The notes under the pieces: generated by a model
Seen by the model: only the letters and a program-made list of their open reading frames with translations
Database searches by the model: none
Told to the model about the DNA's origin: nothing
Shown here: piece by piece, positions 1 through 12,211 of the stretch
Position numbering within the stretch: the stretch's first letter is position 1
Layout: every line of letters begins with the position of its first letter
Program-made: the position numbers and the translations under genes
From: a virus
Taxonomy: Duplodnaviria; Heunggongvirae; Uroviricota; Caudoviricetes
Length of the DNA stretch: 14,511 nt
Direction: 5' to 3' (one strand)
IMG/VR virus record: IMGVR_UViG_3300029079_000067

Positions 1-1209
1 ATGTCGGTTTTTCATAACTGGCTGCTTGATATCGCAAGCGGGAATTACTTTATCTACATCAAACGCCTTTCTGCAAACGACACAGGCGCAACAGGTGGCC
101 ATCAGGTCGGACTTTATATCCCCTCAAATATCGTTGAAAAGCTTTTTCCATCTATCAATCATACTCGCGAACTGAACCCTTCAGTCTTCCTTACTGCGCA
201 TGTATCATCCCATGATTGCCCTGATACCCAAGCACGCGCAATTTATTACAACAACCGTTATTTTGGTAAGACCCGAAACGAAAAAAGAATTACGCGCTGG
301 GGGAGAGGAAGTCCATTACAGAACCCTGAAAATACAGGAGCCCTCACAATTCTTGCTTTCAGGTTAAACGAACAGAACACTGACTGTTCCGAGGTAGATA
401 TATGGGTCTGCGTCAATCCCGATGAAGAGGATATCATCGAGTCTGCTATTGGCGAAATCATACCTGGAACCCTAATTTCCGGCCCTGCCGGACAAATTTT
501 GGGCGGATTGTCTCTTCAGCAAACTCCAGTAAATCATAAATATGTTATTCCTGAAGACTGGAAGAAGCGTTTTCCTTCTGGAAACGAAATTATTCAATAT
601 GCTGCTGGCCATTATGCTAAAAACTCCAAGGATCCAGATGAGCAACTGATTGACCGTCGGCGTGTCGAGTATGATATTTTTCTACTCGTCGAGGAATTAC
701 ATGTTCTTGATATTATTAAGAAAGGATTCGATTCTGTAGATGAGTTTATTGCATTAGCCAACTCTGTCAGTAATCGACGTAAATCAAGGGCAGGCAAATC
801 ACTTGAACTTCACCTAGAGAAGCTTTTTATCGAGCACGGACTACGGCATTTCTCCACTCAGGCAGTTACTGAAGGTAATAAAAAACCAGATTTCCTGTTT
901 CCTTCAGCAGAGGCATATCATAACGTTGAATTTCCTGTAGAAAACTTACGTATGCTGGCAGTAAAGACCACCTGCAAAGATCGCTGGCGTCAGATACTGA
1001 ATGAAGCAGATAAAATCCATCAGGTACATTTATTTACACTGCAAGAAGGTGTTTCTTCAGCACAATACCGAGAAATGAAAGATGCGGGTGTCAGACTCGT
1101 TGTACCATCAACTTTACATAAAAAATACCCAGAAGCAGTTAGAGAAGAATTAATAACGCTCGGAGCATTCATTACTGAGCTGATAGAGCTTTACGCTGAA
1201 CTATCATAG
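1..1209 (+). CDS. ecoRIIR: Type IIE restriction endonuclease, EcoRII-like (complete)
   Basis: 402-codon ORF from ATG at position 1 to TAG at 1207-1209. Translation (MSVFHNWLLDIASGNYF...RLSANDTGATGGHQVGLYIP...) matches, from memory, the EcoRII endonuclease along its length; no identity figure computed. Convergent with a cytosine-5 methyltransferase gene, as in EcoRII. Promoter lies outside the window. Confidence 0.88.
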   Translation: MSVFHNWLLDIASGNYFIYIKRLSANDTGATGGHQVGLYIPSNIVEKLFPSINHTRELNPSVFLTAHVSSHDCPDTQARAIYYNNRYFGKTRNEKRITRWGRGSPLQNPENTGALTILAFRLNEQNTDCSEVDIWVCVNPDEEDIIESAIGEIIPGTLISGPAGQILGGLSLQQTPVNHKYVIPEDWKKRFPSGNEIIQYAAGHYAKNSKDPDEQLIDRRRVEYDIFLLVEELHVLDIIKKGFDSVDEFIALANSVSNRRKSRAGKSLELHLEKLFIEHGLRHFSTQAVTEGNKKPDFLFPSAEAYHNVEFPVENLRMLAVKTTCKDRWRQILNEADKIHQVHLFTLQEGVSSAQYREMKDAGVRLVVPSTLHKKYPEAVREELITLGAFITELIELYAELS

Positions 1210-1214
1210 GCTGA

Positions 1215-1237
1215 CTCCCGGCTTAAAAGGCCGGGAG
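1215..1237. terminator. GC-rich hairpin between the convergent R and M genes (putative bidirectional terminator)
   Basis: ctcccggc (1215-1222) / ttaaaag loop / gccgggag (1230-1237): perfect 8-bp inverted repeat in the 34-bp gap between the two stop codons. No clear T-tract on either side, so terminator function is inferred. Confidence 0.35.
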
Positions 1238-1243
1238 ATGTTC

Positions 1244-2677
1244 TCAAGGCTGCCCAGTCTTACCAGCATCAGCAGAAACAGCTTTGAGGATATAGGGTTC
1301 CAGAAGTCTGGCAACAGCTTCAAATACTGGCACCACAACTGAGTTACCGAACTGCCGATATGACTGAGTATCTGAAACCGGAATACGGAATGGTTTCCCT
1401 CCAGGTTTTTCAAATCCCATAAGGCGTGCGCACTCTCGGGGAGTCAGCCTGCGTGGTCGACGAGCCTGATTACTCTCATTCATAAAGTCAGCCTCTCCCG
1501 TTGCCATATCCCAACCACGATCAATAAGAATTTCTGATCCGTCTTTGTGATATCTGGCAGAAAGTGTGCGTGCAATGCTTTCCTTATTCTCAGGATTGAC
1601 CAACCCAAAGCCAAAACCATTCCCCTTGGCTGCATGCTTTTTGGCGTAGTTATAAAGGTACTCCCATAGTTTTGGCGTAAGTATATATTTACTGTCGACT
1701 ACAGGCTCCAGCAATTCACCAAATGATGGGCGGTGTTCCGGATAAAAACGACTGATATCACGCAAGGTAAACCCCTTGTGAATATTCAGATCTCGTCTAA
1801 ATCCGACCAGAACAATGCGTTCACGATGCTGAGGCAAAAAATGCTTCCCATCGATAATCTTTGGATCGTTTTTTCCCATTTCTGCAGCATCGGCAACTTC
1901 GTAGCCCAGCTCGTCAAGGGTCTCCATAATGACTTTGAAAGTTTTACCCTTATCATGGCTCTTCAGATTTTTGACATTTTCCAGCACAAAAATTGCCGGT
2001 TTTTTTGCTCGTATAATACGTGCCACGTCAAAAAAAAGTGTTCCTTGTGCTTCACATTCAAAACCATGCGCACGACCAAGTGAGTTTTTCTTACTAACAC
2101 CAGCAAGGCTAAATGGCTGGCACGGGAACCCCGCAAGAAGCACATCATGATCCGGCACATGCTCATCAATATATGCATAAGCATCCGTTTCCAATACATC
2201 GGTTTTATCACTCAGCGTGACTTCCCGAATATCGAGATTGAATTTATGCACCTGTTCATCGTTAAACCAGTTGGCCTTGTATGTACGCACAGCATCTTTA
2301 TTCCATTCACTGGTAAAAACACACTGGCCTCCAATGGCCTCAAAACCTTTCCGTATCCCTCCAATTCCAGCAAATAAGTCAATGAAGCGGAAAGCATATT
2401 CCGGATGGTTTGCAGGTGGTTCTGGTAGCATCTTACGCAGAAGAGACTCTTCTACTGAAGTCAACGATTTTGGTAAACACTTGCCATTAATCCAGCGGTT
2501 AATGGTTTCACGGCTCCACTCATTTTTTCCGACTTTTCTCAGTAATTCAGCCACATACTTCTGATCATAGATTTCCAGCACTTTCTCGATAAGCTTTTTA
2601 TCATTTTCCTGTCGCAGCTTTTCTTCCGCCTCGGCTTCCTTCAGCAGATGCTGTGCCAACACTTCAAATTCAGACAT
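1244..2677 (-). CDS. ecoRIIM: DNA (cytosine-5)-methyltransferase, M.EcoRII/Dcm-like
   Basis: Minus-strand ORF 1244-2719. The internal ATG at 2677 has GGAGG 4 nt upstream (plus-strand cctcc at 2682-2686), so 2677 is the preferred start (477 aa); the track start at 2719 adds 14 codons. Canonical C5-MTase motifs present: FAGIGG (motif I), GFPCQPFS (motif IV, catalytic Cys), ENV (motif VI), QHRERIV (motif VIII), RQFGNSV (motif X). Confidence 0.9.
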
Positions 2678-3857
<1,180 letters not shown>

Positions 3858-3876: not shown

Positions 3877-3915
3877 AAACCGCAGCACGATCTTGCATAC
3901 GACGTGCTACGGTTT
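3877..3915. repeat. Imperfect 13-bp inverted repeat overlapping the pin stop codon (possible bidirectional terminator)
   Basis: aaaccgcagcacg (3877-3889) / 13-nt loop / cgtgctacggttt (3903-3915), one mismatch. Lies between the convergent GIY-YIG and pin genes. Flanking T-tracts are weak. Confidence 0.3.
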
Positions 3916-4469
3916 CATTTATCTCCGACCGAAAACTTCTTATACAGTGTCGATATACCAACATCATAGATGATCGCCACCTTCTGGCGAGGAACGCCTG
4001 ATGCAATTAATCGCCCGGCCTGCGCCCATTGTTCTGGTGTAAGTTTGGGACGACGTCCACCAATTCGTCCCTGTGCGCGAGCAGCTTCCAGTCCAGCTTT
4101 TGTTCGTTCAACAATCAGTTCACGCTCCATTTCAGCCAGGGCACCCATCACATGAAAGAAAAAGCGCCCCATTGGGGTACTGGTATCAATTGAATCCGTC
4201 AGACTACGAAAGTTGATGCCTCGTTCGCGCAACTCCTCCACCAGCACGACAAGATGCCGCATACTGCGCCCCAGTCGGTCCAGTTTCCAGACCACCAGCG
4301 TGTCACCTGCCGATAATGTCCTGAGCAGCTTTTTCAGTCCTGGTCTGTCGGACTTTGTACCGCTTATCTTGTCTTCAAAAATCAGCTCGCATCCTGCACA
4401 GTTCAGCGCATTACGTTGTAGATCTGTGTTCTGGTCATTTGTTGACACACGTACATAGCCAATAAGCAT
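3915..4469 (-). CDS. pin: Serine recombinase, DNA invertase of the Pin/Gin/Hin/Cin (Din) family
   Basis: ORF 3915-4505. The product from the internal ATG at 4469 (MLIGYVRVSTNDQNTDLQ..., 184 aa) matches from memory the e14 Pin invertase, with the catalytic Ser in the YVRVST motif and a C-terminal HTH (VAIIYDVGISTLYKK). The 12 extra N-terminal codons of the track ORF are probably not translated. Confidence 0.9.
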   Translation of the reverse strand: MLIGYVRVSTNDQNTDLQRNALNCAGCELIFEDKISGTKSDRPGLKKLLRTLSAGDTLVVWKLDRLGRSMRHLVVLVEELRERGINFRSLTDSIDTSTPMGRFFFHVMGALAEMERELIVERTKAGLEAARAQGRIGGRRPKLTPEQWAQAGRLIASGVPRQKVAIIYDVGISTLYKKFSVGDK

Positions 4470-4495: not shown

Positions 4496-5074
4496 ATGAT
4501 GCCATTTGCTCGTTATTTCTGCATTTTCATAAACGTTGGTTTGGGAGAAGGTTCGGCATTACCCGTTGGCGTGCCTGTTCCGTGGCCTTCCGCCACTCCG
4601 CCAACAGGCTGGCTGAAATGCAACGGTGCCGCTTTTTCTGCAGAAGAATACCCGGAACTGGCAAAGGCTTATCCGACAAATAAATTGCCTGATTTACGTG
4701 GTGAGTTTATTCGTGGCTGGGATGACGGGCGTGGAGTGGATGCGGGACGTGCCTTGCTAAGTCTTCAGGATGACTCTTTTGAAGCGCACAGGCATGAGTC
4801 CTTTTTTTACGCGGGTATTTCTCGCAATGAAATACCATTAAAAAATCTTCCAAGTTCAGACGAGATGCTGACTTTAAGTTCTACAACTAATGCCTTGTCC
4901 CCGGACGGTATTGATGCCACTAATTCGTTAATTGGTAATGATGATTACAACTGTCTGATTGAAGGAAATAAAAATAACAAACGAACAGCGACGGGGTTGA
5001 GTACCAGTATTGTCGGTGCAGCAGAGACACGCCCACGTAATATTTCATTTAATTACATTGTGAGGGCTGCATGA
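4496..5074 (+). CDS. Tail-fibre C-terminal variable cassette (Sv'-like), probably silent in this orientation
   Basis: Translation GVPVPWPSATPPTGWLKCNGAAFSAEEYPELAKAYP...LPDLRGEFIRGWDDGRGVDAGRALL is typical of the host-range C-terminal domain of Mu S / P1 S / e14 Stf tail fibres. It begins at the invertase crossover site and is transcribed away from pin, as in the G/P/C invertible segments. No constant-region N-terminal part lies upstream. Confidence 0.65.
   Translation: MMPFARYFCIFINVGLGEGSALPVGVPVPWPSATPPTGWLKCNGAAFSAEEYPELAKAYPTNKLPDLRGEFIRGWDDGRGVDAGRALLSLQDDSFEAHRHESFFYAGISRNEIPLKNLPSSDEMLTLSSTTNALSPDGIDATNSLIGNDDYNCLIEGNKNNKRTATGLSTSIVGAAETRPRNISFNYIVRAA
4524..4549. other. Candidate invertase crossover site (gix/pix-like 26-bp site)
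   Basis: ttttcataaacgttggtttgggagaa resembles the Gin gix consensus TTCCTGTAAACCGAGGTTTTGGATAA (17 of 26 positions by eye, conserved TAAAC...GGTTT...GGA.AA core). About 55 bp from the pin start and in frame with the tail-fibre cassette. Confidence 0.45.
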
Positions 5075-5298
5075 TGTATAACGCCATCTTGAATAGTAAA
5101 TTTATTGCCACAAAGGCAGGAGAGATTACCGTTTATAACTATGACAGTGAGACACGGGAGTATATTTCTGCATCAACTGAATATCTTGCTGTGGGTGTCG
5201 GTATCCCTGCATATTCCTGTTTAGATGCTCCTGGCACACATAAGGTTGGTTACCCGGAATGGTTTTGCCGACCACGTTGCCGATACACCAGGTCATGA
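5071..5298 (+). pseudogene. Tail-fibre assembly (Tfa/U-like) gene, N-terminal fragment only
   Basis: The first ~55 residues ([37 protein letters not shown]) follow the conserved Tfa N-terminal pattern (I.IYN....EFI......G.PA.S.D.AP). Similarity stops near 5260, where the sequence becomes the antisense of the terminase 3' end. ATGA overlap with the upstream cassette stop. Confidence 0.5.
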
Positions 5299-6832
5299 TG
5301 GGATTGCCGTCATGATGAAAGCGCCCCGATTCAATTGCCGCTTCCAGCTCTTTCATCGGGTCGGACATGTTGGTGTAGTTCTGAATGATGGTGATGGGAT
5401 TCAGGTCTTCATCAGCAAGGTCATGTGACAGCCCGGTCGCCCCGAAGGGGTCGATGGGTGACTCGCTGACCGGGCTGATTTTGTTCGCTGCTTTGGCCTC
5501 TTCGAGGATGTAGCGATAATCCACCTCTGCACCATCGGTAACGGTCAGGACGCCCATTTCCACCCATTTCTGAAAGCGTTCGGCTGTCCGGCGATCTTCA
5601 TTTTTCTCGACGCTGTACACCGTGTCATACGGTACCCAGAAACGCGGGGCCACACTGTAGTAATGCGTTTTACCGTCAATCTCGCGGGTATAAAGTCGCG
5701 CCATGCTGTTCATATCCAGCTTACGCGCCAGGTCAAAGGCCAGAATGCACGGCTGCCCCTCGAACTGCTCAAGGGTCAGTGATTTATCCTCGCAGCTCTG
5801 CCAGCTCACCAGGTTGAAATACGCCGAACGCGCCGACACCCAGATATTGAGGTGTTTTGTTTTAAAGACGTTTGCCAGACGGGCGTTATTTTTCGCACGC
5901 TGCTGCTGACTTAACAAAAATTCGCGATAAACCGACACGCCAATATTTGGATTGGCTTTTTCCAGCACCTGCGGGTCGGTCCAGTCGTCACCTTCATCAA
6001 CGGTATAGATGATCCCGAACAGTTCATCGTTGGGCACCGAGCCGTTGAGCATCTCGATGACTTCCCGCCGCTTGTCGTAGCACGGCCCCTCAATGTTGTA
6101 CCCGGCAGTAGTAATGGCCCACATCAGTGGCTGACGTCGCGCCCCCATCCCGGTAAGCATCGTGGTGTAAAGCGCATCGGTGGCGTGCTCGTGATATTCA
6201 TCCACCACCGCACAGTGGGGTGATGATCCATCACCGGGGTTACCGATCAGCGGTTCAAACCGCGCGCCATCCTCCGGACGGTTCATGTTTGAGGCGTTAA
6301 CCTCAATCCCGAACGCTTCCGTCAGCATGGGCGTGCGTTTACACATCAGTCGCGCCGGGCGAAAGACTTCCCACGCCTGTTTCTCTGTCGTGGCACCGGA
6401 ATACACTTCCGCGCCAAACTCGTTATCACAGGCAAAACAATACAGGGCGACACCGGCAGAGATTGCCGATTTGCCGTTCTTACGGGGGATTTCGGTATAC
6501 ACCTCCCGGAAGCGGCGCAGCCGGGAGCCTTTATTGACCCAGCCAAACGCACAGCAGATCACAAAGAGCTGCCACGGCTCCAGCGTGATGGGCATCCGTT
6601 TGAATGCCCACTCACCCTTGGTGTGCGGCAACAGCTGAATAAATTTGGCGGCCCGTTCAGCCAGGTCCTTGTCGAAGCGGTAACGAAACGACTTACTTTT
6701 TTCCGCCATCAGGTCATCAAGATGGCGCTGGCAGGCCTGAATCACAAACTGGCAGGCCACAATCTTTCCGCGAACGACATCCCGGGCATACTGATTGGCA
6801 GCATTTACGTTGGGGTAAGATTTCCGGCTCAT
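5126..6832 (-). CDS. Phage terminase large subunit (HK97/e14-like); extreme C-terminus replaced at a deletion junction
   Basis: 568-aa ORF with terminase-large-subunit character: N-terminal ATPase region (EIPRKNGKS Walker-A-like) and C-terminal nuclease region. The last ~45 codons (after ...CIGNVVGKT) read through the antisense of the Tfa fragment and do not look terminase-like. Start overlaps the upstream terS stop (ATGA). Confidence 0.85.
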
Positions 6833-7323
6833 GATTCGATGATTTTCAGAAACGGGTTAGTAGCTTTCTTCTGCCCCGCCAGGCCAATCAGACGCTGGCG
6901 GCTGCTGGGGTCGAGTCCGAGCATTGCCCCCGTGCTGCTCATCTCGGACTCCTGTTCTTTTTTGGCGGTCAGCTCAGGATTTTTGACCATACCGCCCATT
7001 GCACCGGTGATGGTGTTGCCCTGTCTGGCAATATTTTTCACGGCACGTCGCCAGAACTCATAGGCCACACACCACCGCTCAAGCACCGCGAGGTCAGTCA
7101 CGCACAGCAGGCCCTGACCGCAAAGTTCTTTAGTTGTCAATTGCCACATGATCGTGGCGAGAGGGAGATCTTCTTCAGCGAACCACTCCGGTGGCTCAAC
7201 ACCTTTGATGGGCGTAAAAACAGGTTCATCTTTATTCAGGGCTCGCTTGCCGGGGTTTCCGGCCAGCGCCTTGCGCGCCGTTGGCTTGGGGCGACGCCCG
7301 GAACGCCCCGCCGTTCCAGCCAT
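6829..7323 (-). CDS. Phage terminase small subunit (P27-family-like)
   Basis: Immediately upstream of and overlapping the large terminase gene. Basic N-terminus ([22 protein letters not shown]). Preferred start is the ATG at 7323 with AGGAG 8 nt upstream; the track start at 7332 is a GTG. Confidence 0.65.
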
Positions 7324-7449: not shown

Positions 7450-7800
7450 TCACTTTAACCGTTCACGGGCCGTCTTCGCCTTATGACACGGCCAGCACAG
7501 ACTCTGCAGATTACTGTCGGCATCAGTGCCGCCATGTGCTTTAGGGATGATGTGGTCAACGGTTTTCGCCTCACGCACCACACCGGCACGCAGACATAAC
7601 TGACACAGGCCTTTGTCACGTTGCAGTACACGTTCACGGATAGCATCCCATTTCGAACCGTAGCCGCGCTGATGACGGGACTGGCCTGGCTTGTATTGCT
7701 TCCAGCCTTCGCTTTTGTGGCTTTCGCAGTAGCCTGACGGGTCTGTGGTGGTATGGCGGCAGCCACGAACACGGCAGGCTTTTGGGATTCGTGATGGCAT
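7450..7800 (-). CDS. Phage HNH endonuclease (terminase-associated)
   Basis: Product has the HNH zinc-finger pattern CRVRGCRH...C.SH...VDHIIPKAHGG...NLQSLCWPCH. Preferred start is the ATG at 7800 with GGAG 5 nt upstream; the track start at 7899 adds 33 doubtful codons. Confidence 0.8.
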   Translation of the reverse strand: MPSRIPKACRVRGCRHTTTDPSGYCESHKSEGWKQYKPGQSRHQRGYGSKWDAIRERVLQRDKGLCQLCLRAGVVREAKTVDHIIPKAHGGTDADSNLQSLCWPCHKAKTARERLK

Positions 7801-9771: not shown

Positions 9772-10527
9772 ATGCACTTAGGTTTTCATTCTGAGGGCCA
9801 AGAACAATTTATGACTTTCAAACTTATTAAGCATACGATTAATGTTGTATGGATCTCTAACATCATTACTCCATTGATGTTTTCATCTGAATGGTTTAGA
9901 AGATACGATTTGCTAAGAGAGGAAGATATAGCAAATTCAAACACAACTTTTGATGGTGATTCAATAACAACAGATTACGGTTGGATTGAGATTACGTGCA
10001 TACCAACAAAAGTAGTATTTCAACTGAAAAAAACAGGGCTTGAAAATTCCTTGGCAGACTTAGTGTCATCAATATTTTCTATGTTTCCTCATTCTGAGAC
10101 ACAAGCTGTTGGAATAAACACCCTTTTTGATTATCATTTTAATAATGAAACCAACTGGAATCAGTTAGGAGATGCATTAGTCCCCAAAATTTATTGGCAA
10201 GAACACAATAAATCAGAAATACTTCAGGATGAAGTTGAATATCATTATGGGATGAGAAATTTAGTCATTGCAATAGAAAACTCTAACAAGGAAGATAAAT
10301 CAATTTACAAAGAGGCTATCAATGTCTCTTATGCTTCGTATAGAAAAGTTAGTCCAGATGTATTTGGTTTAAATGTTCAATACAATCACGATCTAGCTTT
10401 GAAAGATATTCGTGACGCTGTTGCATTCACTCAATTACTCCCAAATATAATTCAAAAACATATTTCCGCAGCAATTAAGAATGATATCCTCAGCCATGAA
10501 CAAATGTTTAAGCGGATTCTATCATGA
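9772..10527 (+). CDS. Hypothetical protein, first gene of the AT-rich island
   Basis: 251-aa ORF with AT-rich codon usage. No motif I can recognise. Alternative start at ATG 9811. Stop overlaps the next gene's start (ATGA at 10524-10527). Confidence 0.55.
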   Translation: MHLGFHSEGQEQFMTFKLIKHTINVVWISNIITPLMFSSEWFRRYDLLREEDIANSNTTFDGDSITTDYGWIEITCIPTKVVFQLKKTGLENSLADLVSSIFSMFPHSETQAVGINTLFDYHFNNETNWNQLGDALVPKIYWQEHNKSEILQDEVEYHYGMRNLVIAIENSNKEDKSIYKEAINVSYASYRKVSPDVFGLNVQYNHDLALKDIRDAVAFTQLLPNIIQKHISAAIKNDILSHEQMFKRILS

Positions 10528-11096
10528 ATATATTAACCTATCCTGAAAATTCTTCCAGCCTTAGTAATACACGTTGCGTAACAAAAAAAGAAAAAAACAT
10601 TGAAACATTTGTAAAGACCCACAACATAACTCTTTCCTGTATAATTAAGACAGGTTTTGAAAATTATTCTGAAACATTTGAACAGCAGCAAGAAACTTGC
10701 AGCACAAAATATTCAACAAATATAATTGAAATACCTACTCCGCAACCATTCCCATCTACACAAAAAGGAGTGAAAAATAGAACTCAGCATAAAAAACTCA
10801 AGGCAAGACTTAAAGAAAAAATAACCTTTCTTGAAAAGGCATTAGATACTTATGGTATAATTGACAAAATTGTCAATATGAAATCAAATAAAGAAATACA
10901 TGCTAGAGTATATGATATAAACTCTCATGAATTCATTGATGAGATAACGTTCTCTTCAGATGAATTTAGTAAAAGCGATCAACAAAAACTTGTCGAAAAC
11001 GCTATTTTTTATTGGTATGTTGGTATGGAAAAAACTTTATTTGGACAAGAAAAAAGAGTATCCGAATTTCGCCTAAGAAGAATTTTTAAACAATAA
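10524..11096 (+). CDS. Hypothetical protein, second gene of the AT-rich island
   Basis: 190-aa ORF, translationally coupled to the upstream gene. Lys/Arg-rich central stretch (KGVKNRTQHKKLKARLKEK). No recognisable catalytic motif. Confidence 0.55.
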   Translation: MNILTYPENSSSLSNTRCVTKKEKNIETFVKTHNITLSCIIKTGFENYSETFEQQQETCSTKYSTNIIEIPTPQPFPSTQKGVKNRTQHKKLKARLKEKITFLEKALDTYGIIDKIVNMKSNKEIHARVYDINSHEFIDEITFSSDEFSKSDQQKLVENAIFYWYVGMEKTLFGQEKRVSEFRLRRIFKQ

Positions 11097-11119
11097 TTAG
11101 AAATTACGCAATACGGTGA

Positions 11120-12211
11120 ATGCAGGTGCCTACTGTTCAAAACTCTATCTGTGAAACAATTGTTTTTGGTAAAGGTATTGGCGAATCAATTGCCGTTCGT
11201 CTTGGGTTAAATGAATGGATGATTATTGATTCCTGTTTAAATGATAATAAACGCCCCGCAGCATTAGATTATCTGAAAGAAAAAGGTGTTAATCCACAAG
11301 ATGAAGTAAAACTGATAGTCATTAGTCATTTTCACGATGATCATATTAAAGGGATAGCCGAAATTATTAATAGTTGCAAAAATGCAAAAGTTGTAATTAG
11401 CGCAGCATTGAACACATCTGAATTTAGAGGATATATTAATGCACTAAGTGTTAATGGTGAGGATATGGCAAAAACTAAAGAAATAAACAAGGTCATGTCT
11501 TTATTCTATGATTTGCACAAAAATGATCGTCTTGTCCATGCAAAAAAAGACTGCATACTATTCAAAAGCAGCGAGAATATTCAAGTACATTCGTTATCGC
11601 CTTCTGATATGGATATAACAAACTCTGATCTTGAATTCGCAAACTCTACAAAATTATCATCAAATTTTAGCGAAATAGCCATGTCTGCTAAATTAGTTAA
11701 TCCTAATCACTACTGCGTTGTAATCAGAATATGCTCTCCAACATCAGAAAATAATGAAGTATTATTAGGCGCAGATTTAGAAGTTAGTAAAAACACTGGA
11801 TGGAATTCCGTTTGCAATGCAATAAATCGTCCAGAACCAAACTTAGCAGGTATTTTCAAACTTCCACACCACGGTTCCCAAACAGGCTTTCATGAGGAAA
11901 CATGGAACAAGCTAATCAAAAAAGGCCCTATTTCGATTTTAACCACTTATGATAAATCATCACTACCACGGCAGGATATGATCGACCTCTACAAATCAAA
12001 ATCATCAGCATTATACTGTACATCGATGCCTAAAAGTGATAACGCTCAAGAAAAATCACCTGCGATTGCTGAAGCACGGAGCATATTAGCGAAGATGAAA
12101 AGTTCAGTTTCATTTTCAAATAATAACAATAAATTTGGAATAGTTGCTGTTAGTAATTGCTTAACGTCTAGTCCTAAGGTTGAAACACATTACGCTGCTG
12201 TTTGCTTATAA
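11120..12211 (+). CDS. Metallo-beta-lactamase-fold hydrolase (putative nuclease or phosphodiesterase), third gene of the island
   Basis: 363-aa ORF with the MBL signature HxHxDH (VISHFHDDHIKG), an upstream Asp strand (WMIIDSC), a later metal-ligand Asp (LGADLE) and a PHHGS motif (KLPHHGSQTG) as in ComEC-type MBL domains. About 90 extra C-terminal residues. GTG at 11126 is an alternative start with GGTGA 8 nt upstream. Confidence 0.75.
   Translation: MQVPTVQNSICETIVFGKGIGESIAVRLGLNEWMIIDSCLNDNKRPAALDYLKEKGVNPQDEVKLIVISHFHDDHIKGIAEIINSCKNAKVVISAALNTSEFRGYINALSVNGEDMAKTKEINKVMSLFYDLHKNDRLVHAKKDCILFKSSENIQVHSLSPSDMDITNSDLEFANSTKLSSNFSEIAMSAKLVNPNHYCVVIRICSPTSENNEVLLGADLEVSKNTGWNSVCNAINRPEPNLAGIFKLPHHGSQTGFHEETWNKLIKKGPISILTTYDKSSLPRQDMIDLYKSKSSALYCTSMPKSDNAQEKSPAIAEARSILAKMKSSVSFSNNNNKFGIVAVSNCLTSSPKVETHYAAVCL

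What the first reader, a model, noticed from the sequence alone, without database searches (positions are those of the whole stretch)
5071..5298. Deletion junction fusing a tail-fibre assembly fragment to the 3' end of the large terminase gene
Tfa-like similarity (plus strand) and terminase-like similarity (minus strand) both stop at about the same point near 5260. The whole head and tail morphogenesis module expected between terL and the tail-fibre/invertase segment is absent from this window, so the prophage looks defective in the way e14 is. The terminase gains a ~45-codon foreign C-terminal tail from reading the antisense of the Tfa fragment.
Basis: partly seen in the sequence, partly recalled or inferred. 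Interest (0 to 1): 0.55.

Follow-up and report, generated by a model that had tools for sequence, protein, structure and literature searches.

The report
Prophage deletion scar joining tfaE and terL
This is an ordinary deletion scar in a decaying E. coli prophage: about 16-17 kb holding all the head and tail genes was lost, joining the start of a tail-fibre assembly gene to a large terminase gene that lacks its last 49 codons. RefSeq already marks both genes as pseudogenes.

Summary
The window is E. coli DP051, an e14/HK97-like prophage next to tRNA-Thr/proA.

- **Junction:** tfaE similarity (+ strand) ends at 5252 and terL similarity (- strand) ends at 5249. They share a 4-bp microhomology, GTTA, with no filler DNA.
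- **Deletion:** Strains LR-06 and ECOR29 carry the full prophage at the same site. About 17.1 kb in LR-06 coordinates (about 16.3 kb without LR-06's IS1) lies between the two breakpoints. It holds some 22 tail-fibre, baseplate, tail, head and portal genes and the distal Pin crossover site.
- **TerL:** It keeps 528 of 577 residues and gains 40 foreign codons (not about 45). It loses the counterparts of HK97 TerL K463 and catalytic D471.
- **Tfa:** It keeps 60 of 200 residues and none of its Caudo_TAP domain.
- **Not an artefact:** The exact chimeric TerL is on 42 public contigs.
- **Context:** Other strains, and e14 itself, have different, independent deletions in the same module.

The most likely mechanism is RecA-independent, microhomology-mediated illegitimate recombination. 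Pin- or IS-mediated deletion is not supported. PGAP already annotates both genes as pseudogenes, so this is ordinary prophage decay of low interest.

The parts
3915..4469 (-). pinE, a serine DNA invertase that appears intact (184 aa in the PGAP annotation)
   Evidence: Pfam Resolvase 1.6e-51 plus HTH_7 8.6e-13. PGAP names it 'pinE site-specific DNA recombinase'.
4524..4549 (.). The Pin-proximal crossover site (pix-like, TTTTCATAAACG TT GGTTTGGGAGAA). It is the only such site left in the window.
   Evidence: In LR-06 this site is one arm of a 20-nt inverted repeat whose partner lies 2.7 kb away inside the tail-fibre gene. The window has a single match even when 3 mismatches are allowed. The 26-bp site was extracted.
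4499..5074 (+). Alternative tail-fibre C-terminal cassette of the invertible segment (counterpart of e14 stfE'). The constant N-terminal fibre part it would fuse to has been deleted.
   Evidence: Pfam Collar 1.7e-15. PGAP 'phage tail protein', the same protein accession as in LR-06. Its position matches the stfE pseudogene of e14.
5074..5252 (+). 5' fragment of tfaE: 60 of 200 codons retained. The Caudo_TAP domain (residues 78-199) is entirely lost.
   Evidence: 60/60 residues identical to LR-06 TfaE. DNA is identical to LR-06 for 697 bp up to 5252. Pfam finds no family in the fragment, against Caudo_TAP 1.6e-30 at residues 78-199 of the intact protein. PGAP: pseudogene, missing C-terminus.
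5249..5252 (.). Deletion junction: 4-bp microhomology GTTA present in both parental sequences, one copy kept, no filler DNA
   Evidence: Three-way alignment of the junction with both LR-06 parental sites. Exact extension test. Split BLAST matches overlap at query positions 100-103.
5253..5298 (+). Foreign 14-codon tail plus stop of the Tfa chimeric ORF, read from the antisense of terL
   Evidence: Translation ...KVGY|[14 protein letters not shown].
5249..6832 (-). Native part of terL (codons 1-528 of 577): ATPase domain intact, nuclease domain truncated
   Evidence: Alignment with the LR-06 and ECOR29 TerL proteins: at most 2 substitutions over residues 1-528. Pfam TerL_ATPase 3.4e-26. TerL_nuclease covers profile positions 4-250 of 286, against 4-284 in the intact protein. 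PGAP: pseudogene, missing C-terminus.
5126..5248 (-). Foreign 40-codon tail plus stop of the terL chimeric ORF, read from the antisense of the tfaE fragment
   Evidence: Alignment diverges after N528 to [10 protein letters not shown]...HSYKR*.
6829..7323 (-). Small terminase subunit (P27 family), intact
   Evidence: Pfam Terminase_4 2.4e-21. PGAP annotation, same protein accession as in ECOR29 and LR-06.
7450..7800 (-). HNH endonuclease, the usual partner of HK97-type terminases, intact
   Evidence: Pfam HNH 3.9e-16. PGAP annotation.

Best explanation
Positions 5249-5252 are the scar of an internal deletion in an e14/HK97-like prophage of E. coli. The prophage lies between tRNA-Thr/proA and the paoABCD flank.

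Shown: the deletion removed everything from codon 61 of the + strand tfaE gene to codon 529 of the - strand terL gene. That is about 17.1 kb in LR-06 coordinates, or about 16.3 kb without LR-06's IS1. The lost material includes the second tfa, the tail-fibre gene with the distal Pin crossover site, and the baseplate, tail, head, protease, portal and ymfR genes.

Inferred: the joint formed by RecA-independent illegitimate recombination at a 4-bp microhomology (GTTA). This could have been replication slippage or microhomology-mediated end joining after a break. It could have been one event or the last of several.

Consequences (predicted):
- The prophage cannot build particles.
- TerL keeps its ATPase domain but loses the counterparts of HK97 K463 and the third catalytic aspartate D471. 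It is therefore predicted to be nuclease-dead, with a 40-residue nonsense tail.
- Tfa is reduced to a 60-residue stub without its chaperone domain.
- Pin is left with a single crossover site, so the tail-fibre switch is frozen.

What remains is the regulatory, lysis and cargo/defence part of the prophage. The allele is carried by a lineage of strains.
For: - Split BLAST of the junction: tfa genes match up to 5252 and terL genes from 5249. Only 1 of 5,426 complete genomes spans both.
- Three-way alignment shows GTTA in both parents and no filler. Exact-extension test and deletion size of 17,081 bp.
- LR-06 and ECOR29 carry the complete module between the same two genes, at the same chromosomal locus, in the same order and orientation.
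- No structural genes occur elsewhere in the DP051 prophage, and its integrase is frameshifted.
- TerL is native to N528, then unrelated. Its nuclease profile is truncated.
- Alignment to HK97 TerL 6Z6D (E 4e-25) places K536 and D544 opposite chain K473 and D481. These are K463 and D471 in the paper's numbering; the offset of 10 was checked with D312 = D302. The catalytic centre D302/D388/D471 and K463 are described in PMC9410871.
- The Tfa Caudo_TAP domain lies at residues 78-199, beyond the breakpoint.
- The distal crossover site lies inside the deleted interval, and only one site remains in the window.
- The exact chimeric protein is on 42 contigs from NCBI, JGI, ENA and Logan, in two different left-flank contexts.
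- The chance of 4 bp or more of microhomology at a random junction is 0.016.
- There is no extended homology: 20/64 matches in register.
Against: - No direct parent is available. LR-06 flanks are only 96.4-96.7% identical overall, although the 697 bp left of the joint are identical. ECOR29 has its invertible segment arranged differently. The exact size and the number of steps are therefore inferred.
- Four base pairs of microhomology is suggestive (p about 0.016) but does not prove a mechanism.
- Loss of nuclease activity and loss of Pin inversion are predicted from sequence and were not tested.
Confidence: 0.9

Rival explanations
1. The present junction is the last of several successive deletions or rearrangements, each removing part of the module, rather than a single 16-17 kb event. 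This changes the history, not the nature of the scar.
For: Sister strains at the same locus show piecemeal decay with two or more junctions. WL297 has portal|tape-measure and circularization|pin joints. ST540 has a terL|tail-terminator joint plus tfa fragments. e14 has oweE|aaaE and beeE|jayE joints.
Against: Only one junction is visible in DP051 between pin and terL, and both flanks are seamless. Any earlier scars would have been erased, so the data cannot distinguish the two histories.
Confidence: 0.2
2. Aberrant site-specific recombination by the neighbouring Pin invertase between pseudo-crossover sites in tfaE and terL produced the deletion.
For: The pin gene lies 600 bp away. The tfaE breakpoint region (CATAAGGTTGGTTAT) loosely resembles the pix site (CATAAACGTTGGTTTG). 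The best ungapped scores of 26-mers overlapping the breakpoints are 13/26 and 14/26, in the top 1.4% and 0.5% of background 26-mers.
Against: About 31 windows were inspected per breakpoint, so those scores are not significant. The implied core dinucleotides are GT and AT, which are unlike each other and unlike the TT core of pix. They fall at window 5245-5247, and a crossover there would put the terL base C at 5248, whereas the junction has the tfaE base G. From established knowledge, Din-family invertases need an enhancer and Fis and strongly favour inversion over deletion.
Confidence: 0.02
3. IS1-mediated adjacent deletion. LR-06 carries an IS1 in the tail-fibre region.
For: IS1 sits inside the interval in LR-06 and next to the remnant in ST540.
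Against: IS-mediated adjacent deletions retain the IS at the junction. Here tfaE sequence runs to 5252 and terL sequence starts at 5249, with no IS sequence or filler.
Confidence: 0.02
4. Assembly artefact, or a chimera of two unrelated prophage remnants, rather than an internal deletion.
For: Only one of 5,426 complete RefSeq E. coli genomes has the junction. GC content shifts from 41.5% to 54.8% across it.
Against: The exact 568-aa chimeric protein is found on 42 contigs from four independent sources, on contigs up to 4.7 Mb. Intact relatives at the same locus hold both halves in the same order and orientation. The GC shift is what is expected between a tail-fibre cassette and the packaging module.
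Confidence: 0.02

Closest known systems
Cryptic prophage e14 of E. coli K-12 (icd locus)
   Same: Same phage family: ymfK/ymfT/ymfL regulators, ymfR, ymfQ, and a pinE-stf-tfa invertible segment. Its terL fragment aaaE is 98.3% identical to window 5249-6235, and pinE is 93% identical. It has also lost most morphogenesis genes by internal deletions, and it also carries a restriction/defence gene (mcrA) beside pin.
   Different: Different integration site (icd, against tRNA-Thr/proA). The junctions differ. e14 fuses a replication gene to the middle of terL, keeping the terL 3' end and losing the 5' end, which is the opposite of DP051. It also fuses portal (beeE) to baseplate J (jayE). e14 keeps ymfQ, stfP, both tfa genes and a complete invertible segment. 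DP051 keeps the lysis, Q, terS and HNH genes that e14 lacks.
Full-length relatives at the same locus (E. coli LR-06, ECOR29)
   Same: Same chromosomal site and the same flanking prophage genes: HNH, terS, lysis cassette, a three-gene + strand cassette, Q, DUF968, KilA-N. TerL differs by at most 2 residues over 1-528. LR-06 has an identical GIY-YIG/pin/stf'/tfaE end.
   Different: They retain the roughly 22 genes from tfa to ymfR and the full 577-aa TerL. LR-06 has an IS1 in the tail-fibre region. ECOR29 has different invertible-segment contents.
HK97 large terminase (PDB 6Z6D)
   Same: Same two-domain architecture (ATPase plus RNase H-like nuclease), E 4e-25. The system includes an HNH endonuclease and a small terminase.
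   Different: The DP051 copy ends 49 residues early and lacks the counterparts of K463 and catalytic D471.
Independent deletion alleles of the same prophage (LH10-b-1, ST540, WL297)
   Same: Same locus and the same module affected. Two of them also truncate the terL 3' end.
   Different: The breakpoints differ: terL|ymfQ in LH10-b-1, terL (about 499 codons)|tail terminator in ST540, and portal|tape measure plus circularization|pin in WL297.

Membership tests
HK97-type large terminase (TerL_ATPase PF03354 + TerL_nuclease PF20441) | N-terminal packaging ATPase domain | tested here: met
   PF03354, E 3.4e-26, residues 86-256, profile positions 1-174 of 178. Identical to the intact relatives.
HK97-type large terminase (TerL_ATPase PF03354 + TerL_nuclease PF20441) | Complete RNase H-like nuclease domain with three catalytic aspartates (HK97 D302, D388, D471) | tested here: not met
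   The profile is covered only to position 250 of 286. The D302 counterpart (D367) is present, but the counterparts of K463 (K536) and D471 (D544) lie in the 49 deleted residues. The D388 counterpart was not mapped explicitly.
Tail fibre assembly protein (Caudo_TAP, PF02413) | Caudo_TAP chaperone domain | tested here: not met
   No Pfam hit in the 74-aa product. In the intact 200-aa TfaE the domain spans residues 78-199, beyond the breakpoint at residue 60.
Tail fibre assembly protein (Caudo_TAP, PF02413) | Homology of the retained part to a bona fide tfaE gene | tested here: met
   60/60 residues identical to LR-06 TfaE (E 4e-43). About 82% identical to e14 TfaE over those 60 residues.
Din-family (Pin/Gin/Hin/Cin) invertible tail-fibre segment | Serine invertase gene adjacent to the segment | tested here: met
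   Resolvase plus HTH_7 domains. PGAP names it pinE.
Din-family (Pin/Gin/Hin/Cin) invertible tail-fibre segment | Two crossover sites in inverted orientation flanking the segment | tested here: not met
   LR-06 has both arms (19382-19401 and 22101-22120 of L005). The window has only the proximal one (4531-4550), even with 3 mismatches allowed. The distal one lies inside the deleted interval.
Defective (cryptic) prophage | Loss of genes essential for virion production relative to intact relatives at the same site | tested here: met
   All head, tail, baseplate, fibre and portal genes of LR-06 and ECOR29 are absent from the DP051 prophage. The integrase is also frameshifted.
Defective (cryptic) prophage | Inability to produce particles on induction | not testable with these tools
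   Needs an induction experiment.
e14 element itself (same deletion alleles) | e14 junctions (oweE|aaaE, beeE|jayE) and integration in icd | tested here: not met
   Different junctions and a different locus.
Microhomology-mediated (illegitimate) deletion | Parental sequences collinear in intact relatives; short identical motif at both breakpoints with one copy retained; no filler, IS or recombinase site | tested here: met
   GTTA is present at both LR-06 sites and once in DP051. There is no IS or filler. The Pin pseudo-site test was negative. There is no longer homology: 20/64 in register. P(4 bp or more by chance) = 0.016.

The most novel reading that the evidence does not exclude
The chimeric TerL has an intact ATPase, a predicted dead nuclease and a 40-residue nonsense tail. 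It still sits behind Q, the lysis genes, HNH and terS in the late operon. It might be retained because it poisons the packaging motor of incoming e14/HK97-like phages, acting as a dominant-negative terminase. That would add to the defence cargo of this remnant (EcoRII-type R-M and PD-T4-3). The fact that the exact allele persists on 42 contigs in two flank contexts is compatible with retention, but equally with recent clonal spread.
Probability: 0.03. Interest if true: 0.5.

Novelty: already known. Interest (0 to 1): 0.08.

Why it matters
It matters little beyond annotation. It documents, to the base pair, one more way in which e14-like prophages decay, with a 4-bp microhomology joint. It explains two spurious-looking ORFs (75 aa and 568 aa) that gene callers may report as intact proteins. 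It also shows that the Pin switch here is orphaned. Independent deletions recur in the same module in different strains while the cargo/defence end is kept. This fits the accepted picture of prophage 'grounding' and domestication (PMC6379469, PMC7744054) and does not challenge it.

Tried and rejected
- **Local BLAST against L002-L004:** it failed because those loci had not yet been copied to the script machine. I replaced it with DNA alignment and later scripts.
- **LH10-b-1 tfa as the left parent:** it was too divergent to define the breakpoint. The 100%-identical LR-06 gene replaced it.
- **Pin-mediated deletion:** I scored all 26-mers against the two pix sites. The result was not significant and the register was incompatible with the junction.
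- **Longer imperfect homology around the breakpoints:** none, 20/64 matches in register.
- **IS-mediated deletion:** no IS sequence at the joint.
- **Assembly artefact:** rejected because the exact chimeric protein is on 42 contigs.
- **Literature search for the original e14 analysis:** it did not return that paper. Statements about e14 rest on the MG1655 RefSeq annotation and PMC6379469.
- **One paper reading failed** on a term that was too short.
- **PADLOC and Pfam** gave nothing for the two small proteins at 9772-11096.

Full report
**Source and context.** The window is 100% identical to the chromosome of E. coli DP051 (NZ_CP156034.1). Window coordinate equals L001 coordinate minus 17001. 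It lies in a prophage bounded by tRNA-Thr/proA on one side and by a LysR-fragment/paoABCD flank on the other. The prophage carries the e14-type genes ymfK, ymfT, ymfL and pinE, together with an HK97-type packaging set: HNH endonuclease, P27-family small terminase and large terminase. RefSeq/PGAP already annotates a 'tail fiber assembly protein, missing C-terminus' at window 5074-5253 (+) and a 'terminase large subunit, missing C-terminus' at window 5237-6832 (-). The prophage integrase is annotated as frameshifted.

**Checking the observation.** The 75-aa ORF at 5071-5298 (+) and the 568-aa ORF at 5126-6832 (-) exist and overlap convergently. I searched a junction-spanning query (5150-5350) against 5,426 complete E. 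coli genomes. Tail-fibre-assembly genes matched 5150-5252 at 100% identity (E 1e-45). Terminase genes matched 5249-5350 at 100% identity (E 4e-45). Only DP051 covered both halves.

**Mapping the deletion.** Strain LR-06 carries, at the same chromosomal site, an identical GIY-YIG/pin/stf'/tfaE end followed by the complete set of fibre, baseplate, tail, head, protease, portal and ymfR genes, and then a 577-aa terL. ECOR29 shows the same module with a different invertible-segment content.

A three-way alignment gives the following:
- tfaE parent: ...CATAAGGTTGGTTA|TGCAA
- terL parent: ...CATCATCGTTA|CCCGGAATGG
- DP051: ...CATAAGGTTGGTTA|CCCGGAATGG

Both parents contain GTTA and DP051 keeps one copy, with no filler. 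An exact-extension test confirms the boundaries. The left parent is identical for 697 bp up to 5252 and no further. The right parent is identical from 5249 onward and no further left. In LR-06 coordinates the lost interval is 17,081 bp, which includes one IS1, so it is about 16.3 kb otherwise.

There is no extended homology around the joint: 20/64 matches in register. The chance of 4 bp or more of microhomology at a random joint is 0.016. GC content changes from 41.5% to 54.8% across the joint, as expected when a fibre cassette abuts the packaging module.

**Consequences for the genes.**
- *TerL.* It is native to N528, with at most two substitutions relative to LR-06 and ECOR29. It then reads 40 unrelated codons from the antisense of tfaE. 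Its Pfam ATPase domain is complete. The nuclease profile is covered only to position 250 of 286, against 284 in the intact protein.
- *TerL catalytic residues.* The intact protein aligns to HK97 TerL (6Z6D, E 4e-25). The chain numbering is offset by 10 from the paper's numbering: chain D312 = D302, K473 = K463 and D481 = D471. K536 and D544 of the E. coli protein are therefore the counterparts of K463 and D471. According to PMC9410871, D302, D388 and D471 form the catalytic centre and K463 protrudes into it. Both K536 and D544 lie in the lost 49 residues, so the chimera is predicted to be nuclease-dead. This is an inference and was not tested.
- *Tfa.* It keeps residues 1-60, which are 60/60 identical to LR-06 TfaE and about 82% identical to e14 TfaE. 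It then reads 14 foreign codons. Its Caudo_TAP domain (residues 78-199 in the intact protein) is wholly lost.
- *Pin switch.* The distal Pin crossover site lies inside the tail-fibre gene in LR-06, forming an inverted repeat with the pin-proximal site. It falls within the deleted interval. The window retains only the proximal site, at 4531-4550, even when 3 mismatches are allowed. Pin itself looks intact but has no partner site in cis. The 'phage tail protein' at 4499-5074 is an orphan alternative fibre C-terminus.

**Real, not an artefact.** The exact 568-aa chimeric protein is indexed in 105 blocks of the public assembly collection and was seen on 42 contigs from NCBI, JGI/IMG, ENA and Logan, the longest being 4.74 Mb. 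Most of these share the window's neighbourhood. One variant (L007) matches the window only from position 2886 onward and has another prophage's integrase in place of the restriction-modification genes. The allele therefore sits in at least two flank contexts.

**Mechanism and rivals.** The best-supported explanation is microhomology-mediated illegitimate recombination, by replication slippage or end joining. It may have been a single event or the last of several. Sister strains show piecemeal decay, so a multi-step history cannot be excluded.

Pin-mediated deletion is not supported. The best pseudo-site scores at the breakpoints (13/26 and 14/26) are unremarkable given the number of windows inspected. 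The implied cores (GT and AT) differ from each other and from the TT core of pix. A crossover at those cores would not give the observed base at 5248. IS1-mediated deletion would leave an IS at the joint, and none is there.

**Comparison with e14.** e14 of K-12 belongs to the same phage family. Its terL fragment is 98.3% identical to window 5249-6235, and its pinE is 93% identical. It is also defective through internal deletions, but at different junctions: oweE|aaaE and beeE|jayE. It keeps the terL 3' end that DP051 lost, keeps a complete invertible segment, and sits at icd. 'Defective in the way e14 is' holds as an analogy. The two do not share a deletion.

**Recurrence.** LH10-b-1 (terL|ymfQ), ST540 (terL truncated at about 499 codons|tail-terminator fragment) and WL297 (portal|tape measure; circularization|pin) show further independent deletions of the same module at the same locus. 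This fits the general picture of prophage grounding and degeneration (PMC6379469; PMC7744054).

**Verdict.** The feature is an ordinary prophage deletion scar that RefSeq already flags as two pseudogenes. Interest is low. The only non-excluded unusual reading is that the ATPase-only TerL chimera is retained as a dominant-negative anti-phage factor, and no evidence here favours it.

Noticed in passing
window 1-2719: An EcoRII-type restriction-modification pair sits at the pin-proximal end of the prophage, in the position mcrA occupies in e14. The REase is at 1-1209 (+) (PADLOC REase_II 1.5e-233; Pfam EcoRII-N/EcoRII-C). The Dcm-like C5-methyltransferase is at 1244-2719 (-) (MTase_II 4e-230). 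One carrier of the same deletion allele (L007) lacks this pair and has another prophage's integrase there instead; its match to the window starts at 2886.
   Followed up: partly
window 3084-3857 (+): The 'LEM-3-like GIY-YIG' protein is a full-length match to the PADLOC model of the single-gene anti-phage system PD-T4-3 (E 4.7e-140, profile positions 1-255 of 256). It is conserved next to pin in LR-06 and LH10-b-1.
   Followed up: partly
window 9772-12211 (+): A three-gene cassette lies on the opposite strand between the Q antiterminator and the holin, a typical moron position. It encodes two proteins of 251 and 190 aa with no credible family, then a 363-aa MBL-fold protein (Pfam Lactamase_B 5.9e-7; weak PADLOC hits RTasMBL 2e-11 and LmuA 6e-7). 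It is also present in ECOR29. It may be an uncharacterised defence or cargo module.
   Followed up: partly
between the LysR-fragment flank and GIY-YIG/pin (window ~1-3000; L003 12984-15015; L004 2853-5082; L005 11397-17932; L009 283-3035): The stretch between the conserved chromosomal flank and the pin end of this prophage differs in every strain examined. Contents seen: R-M system; hypothetical protein; AraC regulator plus IS fragment; BCCT transporter plus DUF2254; IS1 plus hypothetical protein. It behaves as a cargo hot spot.
   Followed up: no
L001 39628-40745 and 36457-36767 (outside the window, same prophage): In the source genome the prophage integrase and one hypothetical gene are annotated as frameshifted pseudogenes. 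The element is therefore probably also unable to excise.
   Followed up: no
window 4499-5074 (+): PGAP calls this 191-aa 'phage tail protein' an intact gene. It is the promoter-distal alternative C-terminal fibre cassette, the counterpart of the e14 stfE pseudogene. Its start overlaps the Pin crossover site, and the constant N-terminal fibre part it would be fused to by inversion has been deleted. It is best regarded as a remnant too.
   Followed up: partly
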